In this document: piece by piece, positions 11,962-18,540 of the stretch
How positions within the stretch are numbered: position 1 is the stretch's first letter
Layout of the letters: every line of letters begins with the position of its first letter
Assembly: GCA_009914755.4 (NCBI GenBank)
Contig: CP068257.2
Span: forward strand, 13,920,001-13,984,000
Direction: 5' to 3'
Length of the DNA stretch: 64,000 nt
Origin: the human T2T-CHM13v2.0 reference genome, Homo sapiens
Program-made: the position numbers and the translations under genes
The notes under the pieces: generated by a model
Seen by the model: the letters and a program-made list of their open reading frames with translations, nothing else
Told to the model about the DNA's origin: nothing
The model's database searches: none

Positions 11962-12415
11962 AAAATGTTTGTGACGGTTAATACTGAGTGTCAACTTGAT
12001 TGGACTGAAGGATGCAAAACATTGATACTGAGTGTGTCTGTAAGGGTGTTGCCAAAGGAGATTAACATTTGAGTCAGTGGGCTGGGAAAGGCAGATCCAC
12101 CCTTAATCTGGGTGGGAACCATCTAATCAGCTGCAAGCACAGCCATAATATAAAGCAGGCAGAAAACCATGAAAAGGTTAGACTGGCCTAACCTCCCAGC
12201 CTACATCTTTCTCCCGTGCTGGATATTTCCTGCCCTCAAACATCAGCCTCCAAGTTCTTCAGCTTTGGGACTCTGACTGGCTCTTCTTGCTCCCTAACTT
12301 GTAGACGGCCTATTGTGGGACCTTGTGATTGTGTGAGTTAATACTCCTTAATAAACTCCTTTTTGTATATATATCCTATTAGTTCTGTTCCTCTAGAGAA
12401 CCCTAACTAATACAG
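11962..12415 (+). repeat. HERV-L 5' LTR (MLT2-type ERVL LTR)
   Basis: 'tgacggttaatactgagtgtcaacttgattggactgaaggatgcaaaacattgatactgag...tcctattagttctgttcctctagagaaccctaactaatacag' aligns along its whole length with 18084-18540. Confidence 0.7.
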
Positions 12416-12419
12416 ATTT

Positions 12420-12438
12420 TGGAACCAGGAGTGGTTCT
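12420..12438 (+). promoter_or_regulatory. Primer-binding site, tRNA-Leu-like
   Basis: 'tggaaccaggagtggttc' sits immediately 3' of the LTR. It matches the complement of a tRNA-Leu 3' end ('tggtaccaggagtgggg...') at about 15 of 17 positions. HERV-L is defined by a Leu primer-binding site. Confidence 0.45.
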
Positions 12439-14299
12439 AGAGGAACAGAATATTAAGGATGGAGTTCTTTCATTGGTTTTGGGGTTTCTGGAATTGTCTG
12501 CTTAATATGATTAGAGCCTAAAATGCTAAAGTCTCTGCTTCCAATAGTATGGAGAAAACTGATAGTTCTTGGCATGAACTGTTTAGAGAGTTATGCAAGA
12601 TAAATGCATTTGACACTCCTGATTCACCGCTCATGAGATGCAAGTTTAGTGACTCTATACATAATACCTTTGACCATATGTAGAGAACCAAAGAACATAA
12701 TGAAGTTGGTTGGTTGCTCCTAAGTTCACTGGACAAAGTGATGAGAGAAAATGATGAACTCAAGGATTCTAACTCCAGGCTACAGAAGCAGATACTTAGC
12801 TTCAAATCTACTAAGATTGCCCTGAGTGAGAAAGAGCTGTAGAGAAAGAGCTGAAATTGTGGAAAAACAGACACAAACTCTTATCATGCGAGGGGCTGGC
12901 ATGCAATGAAAGATGCATGCACAGCCTCACCAGGTGTCTACTGTTAAAGTGAGGGCATTGACTGGAAAAGAATGGGACCTTGCAACTTGAAATGGGGATG
13001 TATGGGAGGACCCTGATGAAGCTGGGGACACTGAGTTTGTAAACTCTGATGAAACTTTTTTACCAGAAGGAATAGCTTCCCCATCCCCAGTAGTGGCAAC
13101 ATCCCCTCTCTAACCCATGCTGCCATCAGCCTTTCCACCTGTGTCTGAGGGGATAAAGCTTGTACTGTCTGAGGCAACAGTGGTGGACCGCTTGAGCCAG
13201 TTGCCAGGCAGGATAATGTTGATTCTCCTCTGGAACCACCCCCAAAACCCCTGTTTGCTTCTAGAACTATAACTAGACTAAAGTCTGGGCAGGCCCTTAG
13301 AGGTGAGGTTCAGAGTGTGACCCATGAGGAGGTGTGGGACACTTGAAAAGAACTGCTTGAGTTTTCCAATGTACACAAGCAGAAATCTGGAGAACAGGCA
13401 TGAGAATGGATATTAAAGTTGTAGAATAATGGTGGAAGGAACACAGAGTTGGATCAGGCTAAATTTATTGATTTGGGCCCACTAGGTAGGGATTCTGCAT
13501 TTAATGTTGAAGCTCAGGGAGTTGAAAAAGATTCTAATAATTTATTTGCTTGGTTAGCCGAAATACGGATTCCAAGATGGCTCACTCTGAGTGAGCTGGA
13601 ATTGCCTCATCTGCCTTGGTTTAATGTAGACGAAGGGATCCAAAGGCTTAGGGAGATTGGGATGGTGGAGTAGATAAGTCACTTTAGATCCACTCATCCC
13701 AGCTGGTAGGGTACAGAAGATATACCCTTGACCAACGCTTTGGGAAACAAATTTGTGAGGGCAGCACCTGCCTCTTAGAAGAGCCCTGTAATTGCTCTTC
13801 TCTGTATGTCAGATCTAAAAGTGGAAACCACAGTCATTCAACTTCAATATTTAAATACAATGGGTATAATTGGATCCCGAGCTGCTAAGGGCCAAGTGGC
13901 AGCACTCAAACAACAAAGGCAAGGTGGGCTACTGTAATGGGTGGCAGAGGCAAGGCAGCAATCAGAATAGTCTGACTTGTGTAGACCTCTGGCATTGGTT
14001 AATTAATCAAGGTGTTCCTAGAAGTGAAATCGATGGGAAGCCTACTGTATTCCTACTTAATTTATATAAGCAGAAAACTTCTAGATCAAATGGACAAAGA
14101 CTAATGTGAATTATAAAACCAGAAAATCATGGCCCCTCAATCAATTTCCACACTTGAGCCAATTTACAGACCCAGAAACCCTTGAATGAAGAGGAAGCCA
14201 GGTCTCCTTGAGGAAGGACCCCACTACACTACTGACAATTTATGCTGTTAATCTTTCTCCCATTCTTCCCCAAAGGGTCCTCTAGTCTTTTACCACTGG

Positions 14300-14560
14300 G
14301 GAAAGGGAAATGATCAGACATTCTGAGGACTGCTGGGCACTGGCTCTGAGGGGATGTTGATTTCAGGGGACTGAAAAGGTCATTGTGGTCCTCCAGTTAA
14401 AGTAGTGGCTTATGGAGGTCAGGTAATTAATGGGGTTTTAGCTCAGGTCTGATTTACACTGGGTCCCCGGACTCATCCTGTGGTCATTTCCCCAGTGCCA
14501 GAATGCAGAATTGGCATAGACACACTTAGCAGCTGCCAAAACCCCCACATTGGCTCCCTG
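14300..14560 (+). pseudogene. Retroviral protease remnant (degenerate active-site region)
   Basis: Translation gives '...LLGTGSEGMLISGD...VVAYGGQVINGV...ECRIGIDTLS...'. 'LLGTGSE' is a decayed LLDTGA-type motif and 'GIDTL' is the second protease motif. The frame is interrupted. Confidence 0.45.
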
Positions 14561-14583
14561 ACTGGTAAGATGAGGGGTATTAA

Positions 14584-15215
14584 GTGGGAAAGGCCAAATG
14601 GAAGCCATTAGAGCTCCCTCAACCTAGAAAAATGGTAAATCAAAAACGATATCACATCCCTGGAGGGACTGCAGAGATTAGTGGCACCATCAAGAAGTTG
14701 AAAAATGCAGGGGTGGTGATTCCCACTACATCCCCACTCAACTCTCCCATTTGGCCTGTGCAGAAGACAGATGGATCTTGGAGAATGACCATGGATTATC
14801 ATAAGCTTAACCAAGTGGTGACTCCAATTGCAGTTGCTGTACCATATGTGGTTGCATTGCTTGAGCAAATTAACACATTTTCTTGTACCTGGTATGCAGC
14901 CATCGACTTGGCAAATACCTTTTTCTCCTTTTCTGTTCATAAGGCCCAAAGAAGTAATTTGCCTTCAGCAGGCAAGGCCAGCAATATACCTTTACTGTCC
15001 ACCCTTAGTGGTATATCAACTCTCTGGCTTTGTGTCATTACCTGATTTGGAGAGATTTTGATCACTTTTTGCTTCTACAAGATATCACACTGGTCCATTA
15101 CATTGATGACATTATGCTGATTGGATCCATTGAGCAAAAGGTAGCAAACACACTGGACTTACTGGCAAGACATTTGTGTGCCAGAAAATGGGAAATAAAT
15201 CTGACTAAAATTTAG
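14584..15215 (+). pseudogene. Reverse transcriptase remnant of pol (frameshifted)
   Basis: ORF 14584-15045 reads '...[53 protein letters not shown]...WYAAIDLANTFFS'. ORF 15030-15215 reads '...LVHYIDDIMLIGSIEQ...', with the YxDD box at about 15096-15110. Confidence 0.8.
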
Positions 15216-16881: not shown

Positions 16882-17099
16882 TATTCCACACAGCATTGCC
16901 TCTGACCAAGGCACTCACTTTACGGCTAAAGCAGTGTGGCAGTGGGCTCATGCTCATGGAATTCACTAGCCTTACCATGTTCCCCATCATCCTGAAGAGG
17001 CTGGATTGATGAACGGGAGAATGGCTTTTAGAAGTCACAAGTACAACACCAACTAAGTGACAATACTTTGCATGCCTGGGCAAAGTTCTCCAGAAGGTC

Positions 17100-17450
17100 G
17101 TGTGTGCTCTGCATCAGCATCCAATATATGGCACTGTTTGTCCCATAGCCAGGATTCACAGGTCCAGGAATCAAGGGGTGGAAGTGGAAGTGGCACCACT
17201 CACCATCACCCCAAGTGATCCACTAGCAAGATTTTTGCTTCCCGTTCCCACAATATTACATTCTGCCGGCCTAGAGGTCTTAGTTCCAGAAGGAGGAACA
17301 CTGCCACTGGGAGACACAACAACAATTCCATTTAACTGGAAGCTAAGATTGCCACCTGGACACTTTAGGCTCCTCCTACCTTTAAATCAACAGGCTAAGA
17401 AGGGTGTTACGGTGTTTGCTGGGGTGATTGAGGCTATTAAGATGAAATAA
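17100..17450 (+). pseudogene. dUTPase-like domain downstream of integrase (ERV-L hallmark), degenerate
   Basis: ORF reads '...ILHSAGLEVLVPEGGTLPLGDTTTIPFNWKLRLPPGHFRLLLPLNQQAKKGVTVFAGVIEAIK'. It resembles dUTPase motifs: AGxDL-like 'AGLEV', 'PPGHF.LLLP...AKKGVTV.AGVIE' and a GVID-like 'GVIE'. Confidence 0.55.
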
Positions 17451-17907
17451 GTCTACTACTCCACAACAGAGTTAAGGAAGAGCATGCATGGAATACAGGA
17501 GATCCATTAGGATGTCTCTTAGTATTACTATGCCGTGTGATTAAAGTCAATGGAAAACTGCAACAGCCCAATCCAGGCAGGACTACCAATGGCCCATCAG
17601 GAATGAAGGATTGGGTCACTCCACCAGGAAAAAAAACTACGACCTGCTGAGGTGCTTGCTGATGGGAATACAGAATGTGTGGTAGAAGAGGGTAATAATT
17701 AATACCAATTATGATCACGTGGTCAGTTACAGAAAGGAGGACTGTAATTGTCATGAGTATATCCACCTTCTTTTGTTAAAAACATGTTTGTGCATGGATA
17801 CACTTGTACTAAGAAAATATCTTCATTTTATTTCCTTTTTCCTTTATCCTGTGACATAAGATTTATTGACTTCATATCAGCATTTAAGTATTGTTGACTT
17901 TATGTAA

Positions 17908-17952
17908 TAGCATTTGCGTCGAGGATTGGTGCATTTGCGTCGAGGATTGGTG
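17908..17952 (+). repeat. 22-bp tandem duplication
   Basis: 'catttgcgtcgaggattggtg' occurs twice in direct succession. Confidence 0.8.
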
Positions 17953-18083
17953 CATTTTCGGTTGTATGAAAGATAGTTGTATCCTGTTAGGTGTAATTAT
18001 AACTTTATTACTGTCTTTATTTGAAGATTATGTATGATCTCAGGAGATGTGTATGGGTTCAAGTTGAAAAGGGAGTAGACTAG

Positions 18084-18540
18084 TGATGGTTAATACTGAG
18101 TGTCAACTTGATTGGATTGAAGGATGCAAAGTATTGATCTTGGATGTATCTGCTAGGTGTTGTCAAAGGAGATTAACATTTGAGTCAGTGGACTGGGAAA
18201 GGCAGACTCACCCTTTATCTGGGTGGGCACCACCTAATCAGCTGCCAGAGCAGCCAGAATATAAAGCAGGCAGAAAAAACAGAAAAGGCTAGACTGGCTT
18301 AGCCTCCCAGCCTACATCTTTCTCCTGTGCTGGATGCTTCCTGCCCTCAAACATCAGACTCCAAGTTCTTCAGCTCTGGACTGGCTTCATTGCTCCTCAC
18401 CTTGCAGACAGCCTATTGTGAGGCCTTATTATTGTGTGAGTTAACACTCCTTAATAAGCTCATATATATATATAATATATACTAATAAGAGATATATATA
18501 AATCCTATTAGTTATGTCCCTCTAGAGAACTCTAATACAA
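18084..18540 (+). repeat. HERV-L 3' LTR (MLT2-type), with internal (TA)n expansion near its 3' end
   Basis: 'tgatggttaatactgagtgtcaacttgattggattgaaggatgcaaagtattgatcttgg...ctcatatatatatataatatatactaataagagatatatataaatcctattagttatgtccctctagagaactctaatacaa'. A purine tract 'aaaagggag' lies just upstream at 18067-18075. Confidence 0.7.

What the first reader, a model, noticed from the sequence alone, without database searches (positions are those of the whole stretch)
11962..18540. Relatively complete HERV-L (ERV-L, class III) provirus: paired LTRs, Leu-type primer-binding site, pro-RT-IN remnants and a dUTPase-like domain downstream of integrase
Two LTRs of about 455 bp, roughly 90% identical, bracket a 5.7 kb internal region in one orientation. 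The primer-binding-site-like sequence 'tggaaccaggagtgg' sits 4 nt after the 5' LTR and resembles a tRNA-Leu complement. The pol remnants carry '[26 protein letters not shown]' and 'LVHYIDDIMLIG' (RT), 'WWQVDYIGPL' (integrase core) and an additional ORF with dUTPase-like motifs ('AGLEV', 'PPGHFRLLLP..AKKGVTVFAGVIE') 3' of integrase. There is no env. A dUTPase after integrase is the architecture described for ERV-L and foamy-related elements. About 10% divergence between the LTRs indicates an old insertion.
Basis: partly seen in the sequence, partly recalled or inferred. Interest (0 to 1): 0.5.

Follow-up and report, generated by a model that had tools for sequence, protein, structure and literature searches.

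The report
Dead HERV-L endogenous retrovirus provirus

Summary
Window 11970-18539 (+) is a 6.57-kb ERV-L provirus.

- **LTRs:** 445 and 458 bp, 87.0% identical (K2P 0.144).
- **Target-site duplication:** 5 bp, ATGTT/ATGCT.
- **Priming sites:** a 5-nt linker, then a tRNA-Leu primer-binding site with one mismatch, and a polypurine tract before the 3' LTR.
- **gag:** 12459-14189, no zinc knuckle.
- **pro-pol:** follows the gag stop in the same frame (14190-17747), in the order PR-RT-RNaseH-IN-dUTPase.
- **env:** none; only 334 bp separate the pol stop from the 3' LTR.

The closest intact relative is mouse MuERV-L: Pol 74.7% and Gag 50.7% amino-acid identity in a frameshift-aware alignment. Published hg19 HERVL chains match even in the non-coding tail and the LTR start. 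LTR length, TATA box and AG-rich region fit the published description of MLT2A1. LTR divergence and base composition sit at the published HERVL means.

The copy is dead: 30 in-frame stops, 19 frameshifts, protease DTG changed to GTG, and dUTPase motif 3 destroyed.

- LTR identity is 87%, not about 90%.
- The linker is 5 nt, not 4.
- The dUTPase is the C-terminal domain of Pol, not an extra ORF.
- gag is also present.

Verdict: already known, low interest.

The parts
11965..11969 (+). 5' copy of the 5-bp target-site duplication (ATGTT)
   Evidence: It lies directly before the LTR's TG. It matches ATGCT after the 3' LTR at 4/5, differing by one transition; chance 0.02. A 5-bp TSD is published for MuERV-L (PMC5930517).
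11970..12414 (+). 5' LTR (445 bp, TG...CA), MLT2A-type. TATAAA at 12149-12154 is followed by an AG-rich region; AATAAA is at 12350-12355.
   Evidence: Direct repeat with 18082-18539, 87.0% identity. The termini are shared with mouse MT2 (GTCAACTTGA...CTCTAGAGAACCCTRACTAATACA). The length fits the 444-bp MLT2A1 consensus, and the TATA box plus AG-rich TSS region fit PMC8559712. Signals located.
12415..12419 (+). 5-nt linker (GATTT) between U5 and the PBS
   Evidence: Same 5-nt spacing as in MuERV-L (GAAGT in L001). The '5nt linker' is described in PMC5930517.
12420..12437 (+). Primer-binding site TGGAACCAGGAGTGGTTC (tRNA-Leu type, 1 mismatch)
   Evidence: 17/18 identical to TGGTACCAGGAGTGGTTC, which is in intact MuERV-L (L001 position 1555) and is listed as a Leu PBS for hg19 HERVs in PMC4724089 supplementary file 6.
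12459..14189 (+). gag pseudogene (ATG 12459, TGA 14187-14189); no CCHC zinc knuckle
   Evidence: Frameshift-aware alignment to MuERV-L Gag (570 aa): 50.7% identity, 4 frameshifts, 12 stops. tblastn E about 4e-112. No C-X2-C-X4-H-X4-C motif in any frame.
14190..14583 (+). Protease region, continuing in frame after the gag stop. The active site LLDTGS has become LLGTGS (14330-14347).
   Evidence: Aligned to MuERV-L pro. D->G at codon 14336-14338.
14758..15251 (+). Reverse transcriptase core (RVT_1); YIDD retained at 15099-15110
   Evidence: Pfam RVT_1 E = 5e-15 on the stitched protein. Coordinates mapped from the MuERV-L Pol domains.
15439..15714 (+). RT connection / RT_RNaseH_2-like region
   Evidence: Mapped from MuERV-L Pol residues 368-467. 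The window copy scores below threshold (17.4 bits).
15985..16488 (+). RNase H domain, interrupted by a post-insertion tandem duplication (two ~88-90-bp copies, 16263-16442)
   Evidence: Pfam RNase_H E = 1e-11. Duplication families D4/D5 are 96-100% identical and appear as 30 extra codons.
16543..16656 (+). Integrase N-terminal zinc-binding (HHCC-type) region; the last Cys is lost (MuERV-L ADCQICQ against window AECPVFQ)
   Evidence: Alignment to MuERV-L Pol; peptide coordinates. The HHCC assignment itself comes from general knowledge of retroviral integrases.
16711..16993 (+). Integrase catalytic core (rve). Conserved core peptides WWQVDYIGPL (16723-16752) and SDQGTHF (16901-16921) lie inside this span; HHPEEAG (16985-17005) begins inside it and runs 12 nt beyond its end.
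   Evidence: Pfam rve E = 2e-13. Coordinates. Reading these peptides as the catalytic D, D and E residues is my inference from known retroviral integrases.
17241..17551 (+). dUTPase domain at the C-terminus of Pol. Motif 3 (GVIDPDYHGEI in MuERV-L) is destroyed by a frameshift at 17433 and a stop at 17438.
   Evidence: Pfam PF00692 26.3 bits against a gathering score of 22. PDB EIAV 1duc E = 1.6e-5 and FIV 1f7d E = 3.8e-5. Alignment; coordinates.
17745..17747 (+). pol stop codon (TAA), at the same position as in MuERV-L Pol
17748..18081 (+). 334-bp non-coding tail (no env). It holds a perfect 21-bp x 2.3 tandem repeat at 17910-17957 and a polypurine tract at 18066-18079 (GAAAAGGGAGTAGA).
   Evidence: Too short for env, and no env-like Pfam hit in any frame. 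86.7% identical at the translated level to the tail of hg19 HERVL chain 775. TRF result. The PPT is homologous to MuERV-L's CAAGGGGTGGAT.
18082..18539 (+). 3' LTR (458 bp). The start TG is mutated to AG (or the LTR begins at 18081 with a 1-nt insertion). TATAAA at 18260; the poly(A) signal is mutated to AATAAG at 18453; there is an AT-rich microsatellite insertion at 18462-18501.
18540..18544 (+). 3' copy of the target-site duplication (ATGCT)

Best explanation
Window 11970-18539 (+) is a single, nearly full-length but thoroughly inactivated provirus of the HERV-L group. HERV-L belongs to ERV-L, the class III, spuma-like endogenous retroviruses. The LTRs are MLT2A-type, and the host is a primate.

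How the element once worked, inferred from its anatomy and the published ERV-L life cycle:
- Transcription started downstream of the TATA box in the 5' LTR and ended after the LTR's AATAAA.
- Gag was translated to the TGA at 14187. Pro-Pol was made by reading through that stop, because it continues in the same frame.
- Minus-strand DNA synthesis was primed by tRNA-Leu on the PBS, 5 nt downstream of U5. Plus-strand synthesis was primed at the purine tract just before the 3' LTR.
- Integrase inserted the DNA copy and made a 5-bp target duplication.
- With no env, copies spread by intracellular retrotransposition in the germ line or early embryo.
- The dUTPase fused to the C-terminus of integrase presumably kept uracil out of the reverse transcripts.

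LTR divergence puts the insertion at roughly 30-60 million years ago. The copy has since decayed neutrally: 30 stops, 19 frameshifts, two small internal tandem duplications and a microsatellite in the 3' LTR. It now encodes nothing functional. At most its LTRs could retain some regulatory activity.
For: **Shown by tool results**
- LTR pair: 445/458 bp, 87.0% identical, K2P 0.144.
- TSD 4/5, chance 0.02.
- The PBS and the 5-nt linker are nearly identical to the same segment of intact MuERV-L, and the PBS matches the Leu PBS listed for hg19 HERVs.
- The stitched Pol's best database hit is a 1124-aa protein at 70% identity and 100% coverage. Its cluster contains Mus musculus Gm52800. Its Pfam order is RVT_1, RT_RNaseH_2, RNase_H, rve, dUTPase.
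- Frameshift-aware alignment: pro-pol 14190-17744, 74.7% identity, 15 frameshifts, 18 stops; gag 12459-14186, 50.7% identity, 4 frameshifts, 12 stops.
- Pfam on the window copy is above threshold for RVT_1, RNase_H, rve and dUTPase. PDB lentiviral dUTPases match.
- Translated hg19 canonical HERVL chains 775 and 3636 match the window at 76-87% identity in the dUTPase and post-pol tail, and chain 3636 continues recognisably into the LTR start (MVNTECQLDWIEGCKVLILDVSARCCQRRLTFESV against MANTGCQLDWIEGYKVLILGVSARVLPKRLTFESV).
- No CCHC motif in gag. No env: 334 bp between the pol stop and the LTR, with no env Pfam hit.
- Host signature: CpG observed/expected 0.17 and Alu heads.

**Literature concordance**
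- HERVL has LTRs MLT2A1/MLT2A2/MLT2B, PBS L, 0 zinc fingers, is marked DU+ (dUTPase) among its taxonomic markers, and has a dUTPase in the C terminus of Pol in nearly all chains (PMC4724089 main text and supplement 2).
- Canonical HERVL LTR divergence averages 14.8% (sd 6.1). Mean base composition is 28.2/27.4/23.4/21.0; I read the column order as A/T/G/C. The window has 13.0% p-distance and A 28.4, T 27.0, G 23.7, C 20.9.
- The MLT2A1 consensus is 444 bp, with a TATA box upstream of an AG-rich TSS at positions 205-215 (PMC8559712). The window has a 445-bp LTR with TATAAA at LTR positions 180-185.
- MuERV-L has a 5-nt TSD, a 5-nt linker, a tRNA-Leu(TAA) PBS and no env (PMC5930517).
Against: Nothing contradicts it.

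Limits of the evidence:
- No RepeatMasker/Dfam run was possible. The subfamily label (MLT2A1 rather than MLT2A2 or MLT2B; HERVL-int rather than another ERVL-int) rests on LTR length, published landmarks, and similarity to two published hg19 HERVL chains, not on consensus alignment.
- The exact PBS string is not in the hg19 PBS table of PMC4724089. The window may therefore be non-human, or the copy may simply not be listed there.
- The 3' LTR begins AG rather than TG.
- The life-cycle steps are inferred from homology. They were not observed for this copy, and no activity data for the ERV-L dUTPase were retrieved.
Confidence: 0.97

Rival explanations
1. It is an ERV-L provirus, but from a different primate ERV-L lineage or LTR subfamily (for example MLT2A2- or MLT2B-flanked, or ERVL-B4-like) rather than HERVL proper with MLT2A1 LTRs.
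For: No consensus library could be searched. PMC4724089 lists MLT2A1, MLT2A2 and MLT2B as HERVL LTRs, and ERVL-B4 as a frequent best hit for HERVL puteins.
Against: - The LTRs are 445/458 bp, against 444 bp for MLT2A1 and 549 bp for MLT2A2.
- A dUTPase is present, unlike HERVS, HERVL32 and HERVL66.
- The non-coding tail is about 87% identical at the translated level to hg19 canonical HERVL chain 775, and the LTR start is close to that of chain 3636.
- LTR divergence and base composition sit at the canonical HERVL means.
Confidence: 0.1
2. The coding part is dead, but one of the LTRs is still a working regulatory module: a DUX4-responsive early-embryo promoter or tissue-specific enhancer, as described for a minority of MLT2A copies.
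For: - Both LTRs keep TATAAA followed by the AG-rich region where MLT2A transcription starts are reported.
- The 3' LTR has a reverse-oriented DUX4-like motif with 1 mismatch (CAATCCAATCA, 18109-18119). By my reading of the sequence, a forward CCACCTAATCA lies upstream of its TATA box.
Against: - Only about 360 of more than 6000 MLT2A copies are reported active.
- The 5' LTR's DUX4-like sites each carry 2 mismatches (my reading of the sequence).
- DUX4-motif matches in the window as a whole are at chance level (13 found, 9.2 expected).
- No expression data are available here.
Confidence: 0.08
3. The two LTRs come from separate insertions or a recombination event, making this a mosaic provirus. 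LTR divergence would then not date a single integration.
For: Mosaic HERVs are common (PMC4724089 title and abstract). The TSD is imperfect (4/5). The LTRs differ by 5 indel events.
Against: - The internal sequence is collinear with MuERV-L from the gag ATG to the pol stop, with no foreign segment.
- The total length of 6.57 kb is canonical.
- The TSD differs by a single transition, which is expected at about 13% divergence.
- Both LTRs share the same subfamily landmarks.
Confidence: 0.03
4. The element still encodes a functional or co-opted protein, for example the 116-codon dUTPase-derived ORF at 17100-17450 or a Gag-derived, Fv1-like restriction factor.
For: Short ORFs of 116-165 codons survive. 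The title of the Benit et al. [quoted passage not shown]
Against: - 12 stops and 4 frameshifts in gag; 18 stops and 15 frameshifts in pro-pol.
- The dUTPase ORF has no ATG (it begins with GTG) and lacks motif 3 and everything downstream.
- The protease active site is mutated.
Confidence: 0.01

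Closest known systems
HERV-L (human ERV-L; Cordonnier et al. 1995; Repbase HERVL internal sequence with MLT2A1/MLT2A2 LTRs; 'canonical HERVL', taxorder 30100, of Vargiu et al. 2016, PMC4724089)
   Same: - Same architecture: LTR, Leu PBS, gag without a zinc finger, pro-pol with a C-terminal dUTPase, no env, PPT, LTR.
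- The LTR length fits MLT2A1.
- LTR divergence (13.0% p-distance, K2P 0.144) and base composition sit at the published HERVL means.
- 76-87% translated identity to hg19 chain 775 across the dUTPase and the non-coding tail.
   Different: Nothing of substance. The only differences are copy-specific lesions:
- one PBS mismatch;
- TG->AG at the 3' LTR start;
- a ~90-bp tandem duplication in RNase H;
- a 21-bp tandem repeat in the tail;
- an AT microsatellite and AATAAA->AATAAG in the 3' LTR.
The subfamily was not confirmed against Dfam.
MuERV-L / MERVL (mouse; MT2_Mm LTRs; Benit et al. 1997; Blanco-Melo et al. 2018, PMC5930517)
   Same: - Collinear gag (50.7% aa identity) and pro-pol (74.7% aa identity; 73-77% nt identity).
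- Same gag-stop-pro-pol in one frame.
- Same 5-nt linker plus Leu PBS, and the sequence just after it is almost identical.
- Same LTR termini, 5-bp TSD and lack of env.
   Different: - Mouse copies still have open gag and pol ORFs; this copy has none.
- The LTR interiors are essentially unalignable (45-50% identity).
- The post-pol tail differs.
- The host is a primate (Alu-bearing).
Foamy viruses (Spumaretrovirinae), the exogenous relatives of class III ERVs
   Same: The Pol phylogenetic neighbourhood ('spuma-like'; PMC1224870) and the absence of zinc fingers in Gag.
   Different: - From general knowledge, foamy viruses have env, accessory genes (tas/bet) and an internal promoter, and use a tRNA-Lys PBS.
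- They are not among the dUTPase-bearing groups listed in PMC1224870.
- This element has none of the first three features, uses tRNA-Leu, and has a dUTPase. It is not a foamy virus.
Retroviral dUTPases of non-primate lentiviruses (EIAV, FIV; PDB 1duc, 1f7d) and betaretroviruses
   Same: Same trimeric-type dUTPase fold family (PF00692). These are the best PDB matches for the window domain.
   Different: - Position in the genome. PMC1224870 separates three placements: 'dUTPase-PolA' in non-primate lentiviruses, in the protease gene for betaretrovirus-like elements, and 'dUTPase-PolB' in ERV-L. From general knowledge, the lentiviral domain lies between RNase H and integrase; here it follows integrase.
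- The window copy is a pseudogene with motif 3 destroyed.

Membership tests
ERV-L / HERV-L (class III endogenous retrovirus) | Pol (RT) sequence clusters with HERV-L/MuERV-L | tested here: met
   The best hit among 5.8 billion proteins is the MuERV-L Pol cluster (70% identity, 100% coverage, E = 0). Frameshift-aware identity is 74.7%. The next hits are about 36% identical. No formal tree was built.
ERV-L / HERV-L (class III endogenous retrovirus) | Primer-binding site complementary to tRNA-Leu | tested here: met
   TGGAACCAGGAGTGGTTC is 17/18 identical to the PBS of intact MuERV-L and to the PBS labelled Leu in PMC4724089 supplement 6. ERV-Ls are 'primed with tRNA leucine' (PMC524511). PMC5930517 gives Leu(TAA). 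No tRNA gene sequence was aligned directly.
ERV-L / HERV-L (class III endogenous retrovirus) | dUTPase domain at the C-terminus of Pol, after integrase | tested here: met
   Pfam dUTPase 26.3 bits against a gathering score of 22, at 17241-17551, downstream of rve at 16711-16993. PDB dUTPase hits. The literature expectation is given.
ERV-L / HERV-L (class III endogenous retrovirus) | No env gene | tested here: met
   Only 334 bp lie between the pol stop (17745-17747) and the 3' LTR. No env-type Pfam hit in the three sense-strand frames at E <= 1. [quoted passage not shown]
ERV-L / HERV-L (class III endogenous retrovirus) | Gag without a CCHC zinc finger, homologous to MuERV-L Gag | tested here: met
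   No C-X2-C-X4-H-X4-C motif in any frame of 12459-14589. 50.7% identity to MuERV-L Gag over 535 residues. Literature.
ERV-L / HERV-L (class III endogenous retrovirus) | 5-bp target-site duplication and a 5-nt U5-PBS linker | tested here: met
   ATGTT/ATGCT, 4/5, chance 0.02. Linker GATTT against GAAGT in MuERV-L. PMC5930517.
MLT2A1 LTR subfamily (Repbase/Dfam) | Best alignment to the MLT2A1 consensus rather than to MLT2A2, MLT2B-F or MT2 | not testable with these tools
   No Dfam or Repbase library is available here.

Indirect support:
- 445-bp length against the 444-bp consensus (MLT2A2 is 549 bp).
- A TATA box at LTR positions 180-185, upstream of the AG-rich stretch where TSSs at consensus positions 205-215 are reported.
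- A TGATAC/TGATCT hexamer at about position 53, where TGATCC is the commonest hexamer.
- DUX4-like sites on either side of it.
- Translated similarity to the LTR start of hg19 HERVL chain 3636.
- From memory, the sequence also looks like MLT2A1. That is a lead only.
Trimeric dUTPase (PF00692) as an active enzyme | Conserved catalytic motifs intact, including motif 3 (G-x-I-D-x-D-Y-x-G-E) | tested here: not met
   MuERV-L has GVIDPDYHGEI. The window reads GVIE, then a frameshift at 17433, then Y, a stop, and DEI. The domain is recognisable but cannot be active.
Spumaretrovirinae (foamy viruses) | env plus tas/bet accessory genes; tRNA-Lys PBS | tested here: not met
   There is no room for env or accessory genes (334-bp tail), and the PBS is the Leu type. 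The defining features themselves are taken from general knowledge.

The most novel reading that the evidence does not exclude
The most unusual reading not excluded is that this locus is not inert. One of its MLT2A-type LTRs, which keep the TATA box and degenerate DUX4-like motifs, could be among the few hundred copies that fire at embryonic genome activation or in a specific tissue. It would then drive a chimeric transcript into neighbouring host sequence. Even so, this would be one more instance of a described phenomenon (PMC8559712).
Probability: 0.06. Interest if true: 0.25.

Novelty: already known. Interest (0 to 1): 0.07.

Why it matters
It matters little beyond correct annotation. HERV-L/MLT2 elements are a long-described family. 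PMC4724089 quotes about 200 copies for the HERVL group and finds 86 canonical and 75 non-canonical chains in hg19. PMC8559712 counts more than 3000 copies each of MLT2A1 and MLT2A2.

This copy is a good textbook example. Every landmark is still readable: TSD, LTRs, linker, Leu PBS, gag, in-frame gag stop, PR-RT-RNaseH-IN-dUTPase, PPT. It could serve as a positive control for ERV annotation pipelines, or as one more data point for dating HERV-L activity. It opens no new question.

Tried and rejected
- **Pfam on raw frames.** Scanning the three raw reading frames gave mostly fragmentary hits below the gathering scores (one RVT_1 fragment just reached it). These became clear only after the frames were stitched. 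The raw-frame result is not evidence against the domains.
- **Original ERV-L papers.** PMC104094 and PMC191811 are not held in the library, so secondary open-access sources were used.
- **HERV consensus file.** Supplement 3 of PMC4724089 is truncated before class III. Two individual hg19 HERVL chains printed in supplement 2 were used instead.
- **Exact PBS string.** It is not in the hg19 PBS table of PMC4724089, so the human locus, or even the species, could not be identified.
- **DUX4-motif scan.** Chance level across the window (13 matches against 9.2 expected), so no claim of DUX4 responsiveness is made.
- **Rfam.** No RNA family inside the provirus.
- **Considered and rejected:**
  - MaLR (THE1/MST/MLT1): these lack pol.
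  - HERVS, HERVL32, HERVL66: they lack the dUTPase and carry a class I env.
  - A foamy virus: no env or accessory genes, and a Leu PBS.
  - A still-coding element: 30 stops and 19 frameshifts.
- **Not run.** Structure prediction and the large representative-protein search were unnecessary for the question.

Full report
**Observation**

The region was read directly and searched for repeats. Two direct repeats bracket about 5.7 kb. After alignment the 5' LTR is 11970-12414 (445 bp, TG...CA). The 3' LTR is 18082-18539 (458 bp). Its first base is A rather than T, or alternatively it starts at 18081 with a 1-nt insertion.

Over 432 aligned columns the LTRs are 87.0% identical: 35 transitions, 21 transversions, K2P 0.144, and five indel events. 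The largest indel is a 26-bp AT-rich microsatellite in the 3' LTR.

All quoted peptides exist at the stated places. The five bases before the 5' LTR (ATGTT, 11965-11969) and after the 3' LTR (ATGCT, 18540-18544) agree at 4/5. The chance of this at the window's base composition is 0.02. The single difference is a transition, as expected at about 13% divergence.

**Host**

CpG observed/expected is 0.17. Five Alu 5' ends are present, one just upstream at 11411-11429. L1 ORF2 fragments lie elsewhere in the window. The window is therefore primate DNA. The species could not be fixed with these tools.

**Coding content**

Pfam on the raw frames gave mostly hits below the gathering scores, because the genes are split over all three frames. 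After stitching, Pfam gave RVT_1 E = 5e-15, RNase_H 1e-11 and rve 2e-13. The dUTPase scored 22.1 bits within the whole Pol and 26.3 bits as an isolated domain, against a gathering score of 22. The dUTPase segment also matches the solved EIAV and FIV dUTPases (1duc E = 1.6e-5, 1f7d E = 3.8e-5).

A search of 5.8 billion proteins with the stitched Pol returned one outstanding hit. It is a 1124-aa protein at 70% identity and 100% coverage (E = 0), carrying RVT_1, RT_RNaseH_2, RNase_H, rve and dUTPase. All other hits are about 36% identical or less. Its 90% cluster contains Mus musculus Gm52800, so it is mouse MuERV-L Pol. Contigs encoding it were fetched; they also supply MuERV-L gag, LTR and PBS.

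I then ran a frameshift-aware protein-to-DNA alignment.

| Gene | Window span | aa identity to MuERV-L | Frameshifts | In-frame stops |
|---|---|---|---|---|
| gag | 12459-14186 | 50.7% (535 residues) | 4 | 12 |
| pro-pol | 14190-17744 | 74.7% (1155 residues) | 15 | 18 |

The gag ATG (12459), the gag stop (TGA, 14187-14189) and the pol stop (TAA, 17745-17747) are all at the homologous positions. As in MuERV-L, pro-pol continues in the gag frame directly after the gag stop. That implies expression by readthrough.

Domain coordinates were mapped from the Pfam domains of MuERV-L Pol:
- RT: 14758-15251, with YIDD intact at 15099-15110.
- RNase H: 15985-16488.
- Integrase core: 16711-16993.
- dUTPase: 17241-17551.

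Lesions:
- The protease active site DTG has become GTG (14336-14338).
- The last Cys of the integrase zinc-binding region is lost.
- RNase H carries a tandem duplication of about 90 bp (16263-16442). Its copies are 96-100% identical, so it is much younger than the insertion.
- dUTPase motif 3 (GVIDPDYHGEI in mouse) is destroyed by a frameshift at 17433 and a stop at 17438.

The '116-aa dUTPase ORF' at 17100-17450 is therefore a remnant of the Pol C-terminus, not a separate gene. The longest ORF in the element is 165 codons.

**Non-coding landmarks**

The end of the 5' LTR, the linker and the PBS read CTCTAGAGAACCCTAACTAATACA-GATTT-TGGAACCAGGAGTGGTTCTAGAGGAACAGAA. Intact MuERV-L reads CTCTAGAGAACCCTGACTAATACA-GAAGT-TGGTACCAGGAGTGGTTCTAGAGTAACAGAA. 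The spacing is the same, and there is one PBS mismatch.

PMC5930517 describes for MuERV-L a 5-nt linker, a PBS matching tRNA-Leu(TAA), a five-nucleotide TSD and no env. The PBS table of PMC4724089 lists TGGTACCAGGAGTGGTTC as a Leu PBS of hg19 HERVs.

A purine tract (GAAAAGGGAGTAGA, 18066-18079) precedes the 3' LTR and is homologous to the MuERV-L tract. Only 334 bp separate the pol stop from the 3' LTR, and no env-like domain was found. No CCHC zinc knuckle exists in gag.

**Human HERV-L specifically**

Supplement 2 of PMC4724089 prints translations of two canonical hg19 HERVL chains (775 and 3636). These run from integrase through the dUTPase and the non-coding tail into the 3' LTR. tblastn of these against the window gave:
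- 78.6% and 75.8% identity over the dUTPase.
- 86.7% over the tail (SFVKNMFVHGYTCTKKISSFYFLFPLSCDIRFIDFISAFKYC against sfvknmfvhvytctkkissfyflsslscdirfidftsafkyc).
- A clear match of both window LTR starts to the LTR of chain 3636.

MuERV-L has no detectable nucleotide similarity in that tail, so the element groups with primate HERVL.

The same paper gives for HERVL: LTRs MLT2A1/MLT2A2/MLT2B, PBS L, zinc fingers 0, and DU+ (dUTPase) among its taxonomic markers. Canonical-chain LTR divergence averages 14.8% (sd 6.1). Mean base composition is 28.2/27.4/23.4/21.0, which I read as A/T/G/C. The window copy has 13.0% p-distance and A 28.4, T 27.0, G 23.7, C 20.9.

PMC8559712 gives consensus lengths of 444 bp (MLT2A1) and 549 bp (MLT2A2). 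It describes a TATA box upstream of an AG-rich TSS at positions 205-215, DUX4-like motifs upstream, and a TGATCC-type hexamer near position 50. The window LTRs are 445/458 bp. TATAAA lies at LTR positions 180-185 and is followed by AGCAGGCAGAAAA. TGATAC/TGATCT lies at about position 53, with degenerate DUX4-like sites on either side. This favours MLT2A1, but no consensus library was available, so the subfamily label is not formally tested.

**Mechanism (inferred)**

This was a standard env-less retroviral retrotransposon cycle, as set out under the best explanation. Dating from K2P 0.144 gives about 33 My at 2.2e-9 substitutions per site per year and about 60 My at 1.2e-9. These rates are assumptions.

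Since insertion the copy has decayed neutrally. The poly(A) signal of the 3' LTR is now AATAAG.

**Comparison and verdict**

The element meets every tested defining feature of ERV-L/HERV-L and fails those of foamy viruses. It differs from published HERV-L copies only by private mutations. It is an already known kind of element and an unremarkable member of it.

- LTR identity is 87%, not about 90%.
- The linker is 5 nt, not 4.
- The dUTPase is a Pol domain, not an extra ORF.
- gag is present.
- Within the spuma-like class, PMC1224870 assigns a dUTPase only to ERV-L; it does not list foamy viruses among the dUTPase-bearing groups.

The only residual open point is whether an LTR retains regulatory activity. 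Sequence alone cannot decide this, and it would in any case be an instance of a described phenomenon.

Noticed in passing
window 48807-49416 (+): A second, older-looking MLT2-type solo LTR. It starts TGATGGTTAATTTTAGGTGTCACTTGACTGG and ends CTATTGGTTCTATCTCTTAGGAGAACTCTGACTAATG, with a (TCTA)n microsatellite at about 49290-49375. It was found because the translated LTR of hg19 HERVL chain 775 hit it (E = 7e-11), and it was read. By eye its flanks look like L1 3' sequence, which was not checked with any tool.
   Followed up: partly
window 49722-49828 (+): Full-length match to U6 spliceosomal RNA (Rfam RF00026, 82.8 bits against a gathering score of 44). It sits beside L1-like sequence and about 300 bp downstream of the solo MLT2 LTR. 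It is probably a U6 retropseudogene rather than a functional gene; upstream promoter elements were not examined.
   Followed up: no
window 13891-14013 (gag C-terminal part); also mouse MuERV-L Gag residues 486-528 (L001): Pfam DUF5535 (PF17687, 'family of unknown function') weakly matches the C-terminal part of ERV-L Gag. The window copy scores 25.5 bits against a gathering score of 25, and intact mouse MuERV-L Gag scores 21.3 bits. That Pfam family may be ERV-L-gag-derived.
   Followed up: no
window 16263-16442 and 17910-17957: Two post-insertion tandem duplications lie inside the provirus. One is a ~90-bp x 2 duplication in RNase H, with copies 96-100% identical. The other is a perfect 21-bp x 2.3 repeat, GCATTTGCGTCGAGGATTGGT, in the post-pol tail. 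Both are far younger than the ~13%-diverged LTRs.
   Followed up: partly
window 11411-11429, 25860-25878, 26620-26638, 32604-32622, 54777-54795 (all -); 30014-30711 (+), 33053-33493 (-): Five Alu 5' ends on the minus strand and L1 ORF2-like ORFs. This is a typical repeat-rich primate region. The Alu at about 11130-11429 lies some 540 bp upstream of the provirus.
   Followed up: no
window 38166-38176 (+): The only perfect match in the window to the DUX4 consensus TAAYCYAATCA (TAATCTAATCA). The motif count over the whole window is at chance level, and the context was not examined.
   Followed up: no
L001 1-1056: In the ENA contig that carries intact MuERV-L, the sequence upstream of the MT2 5' LTR did not align to the window provirus. 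By eye it looks like retroviral pol-type coding sequence; it was neither translated nor searched. If so, the contig is either MuERV-L inserted next to another ERV or a chimeric assembly.
   Followed up: no
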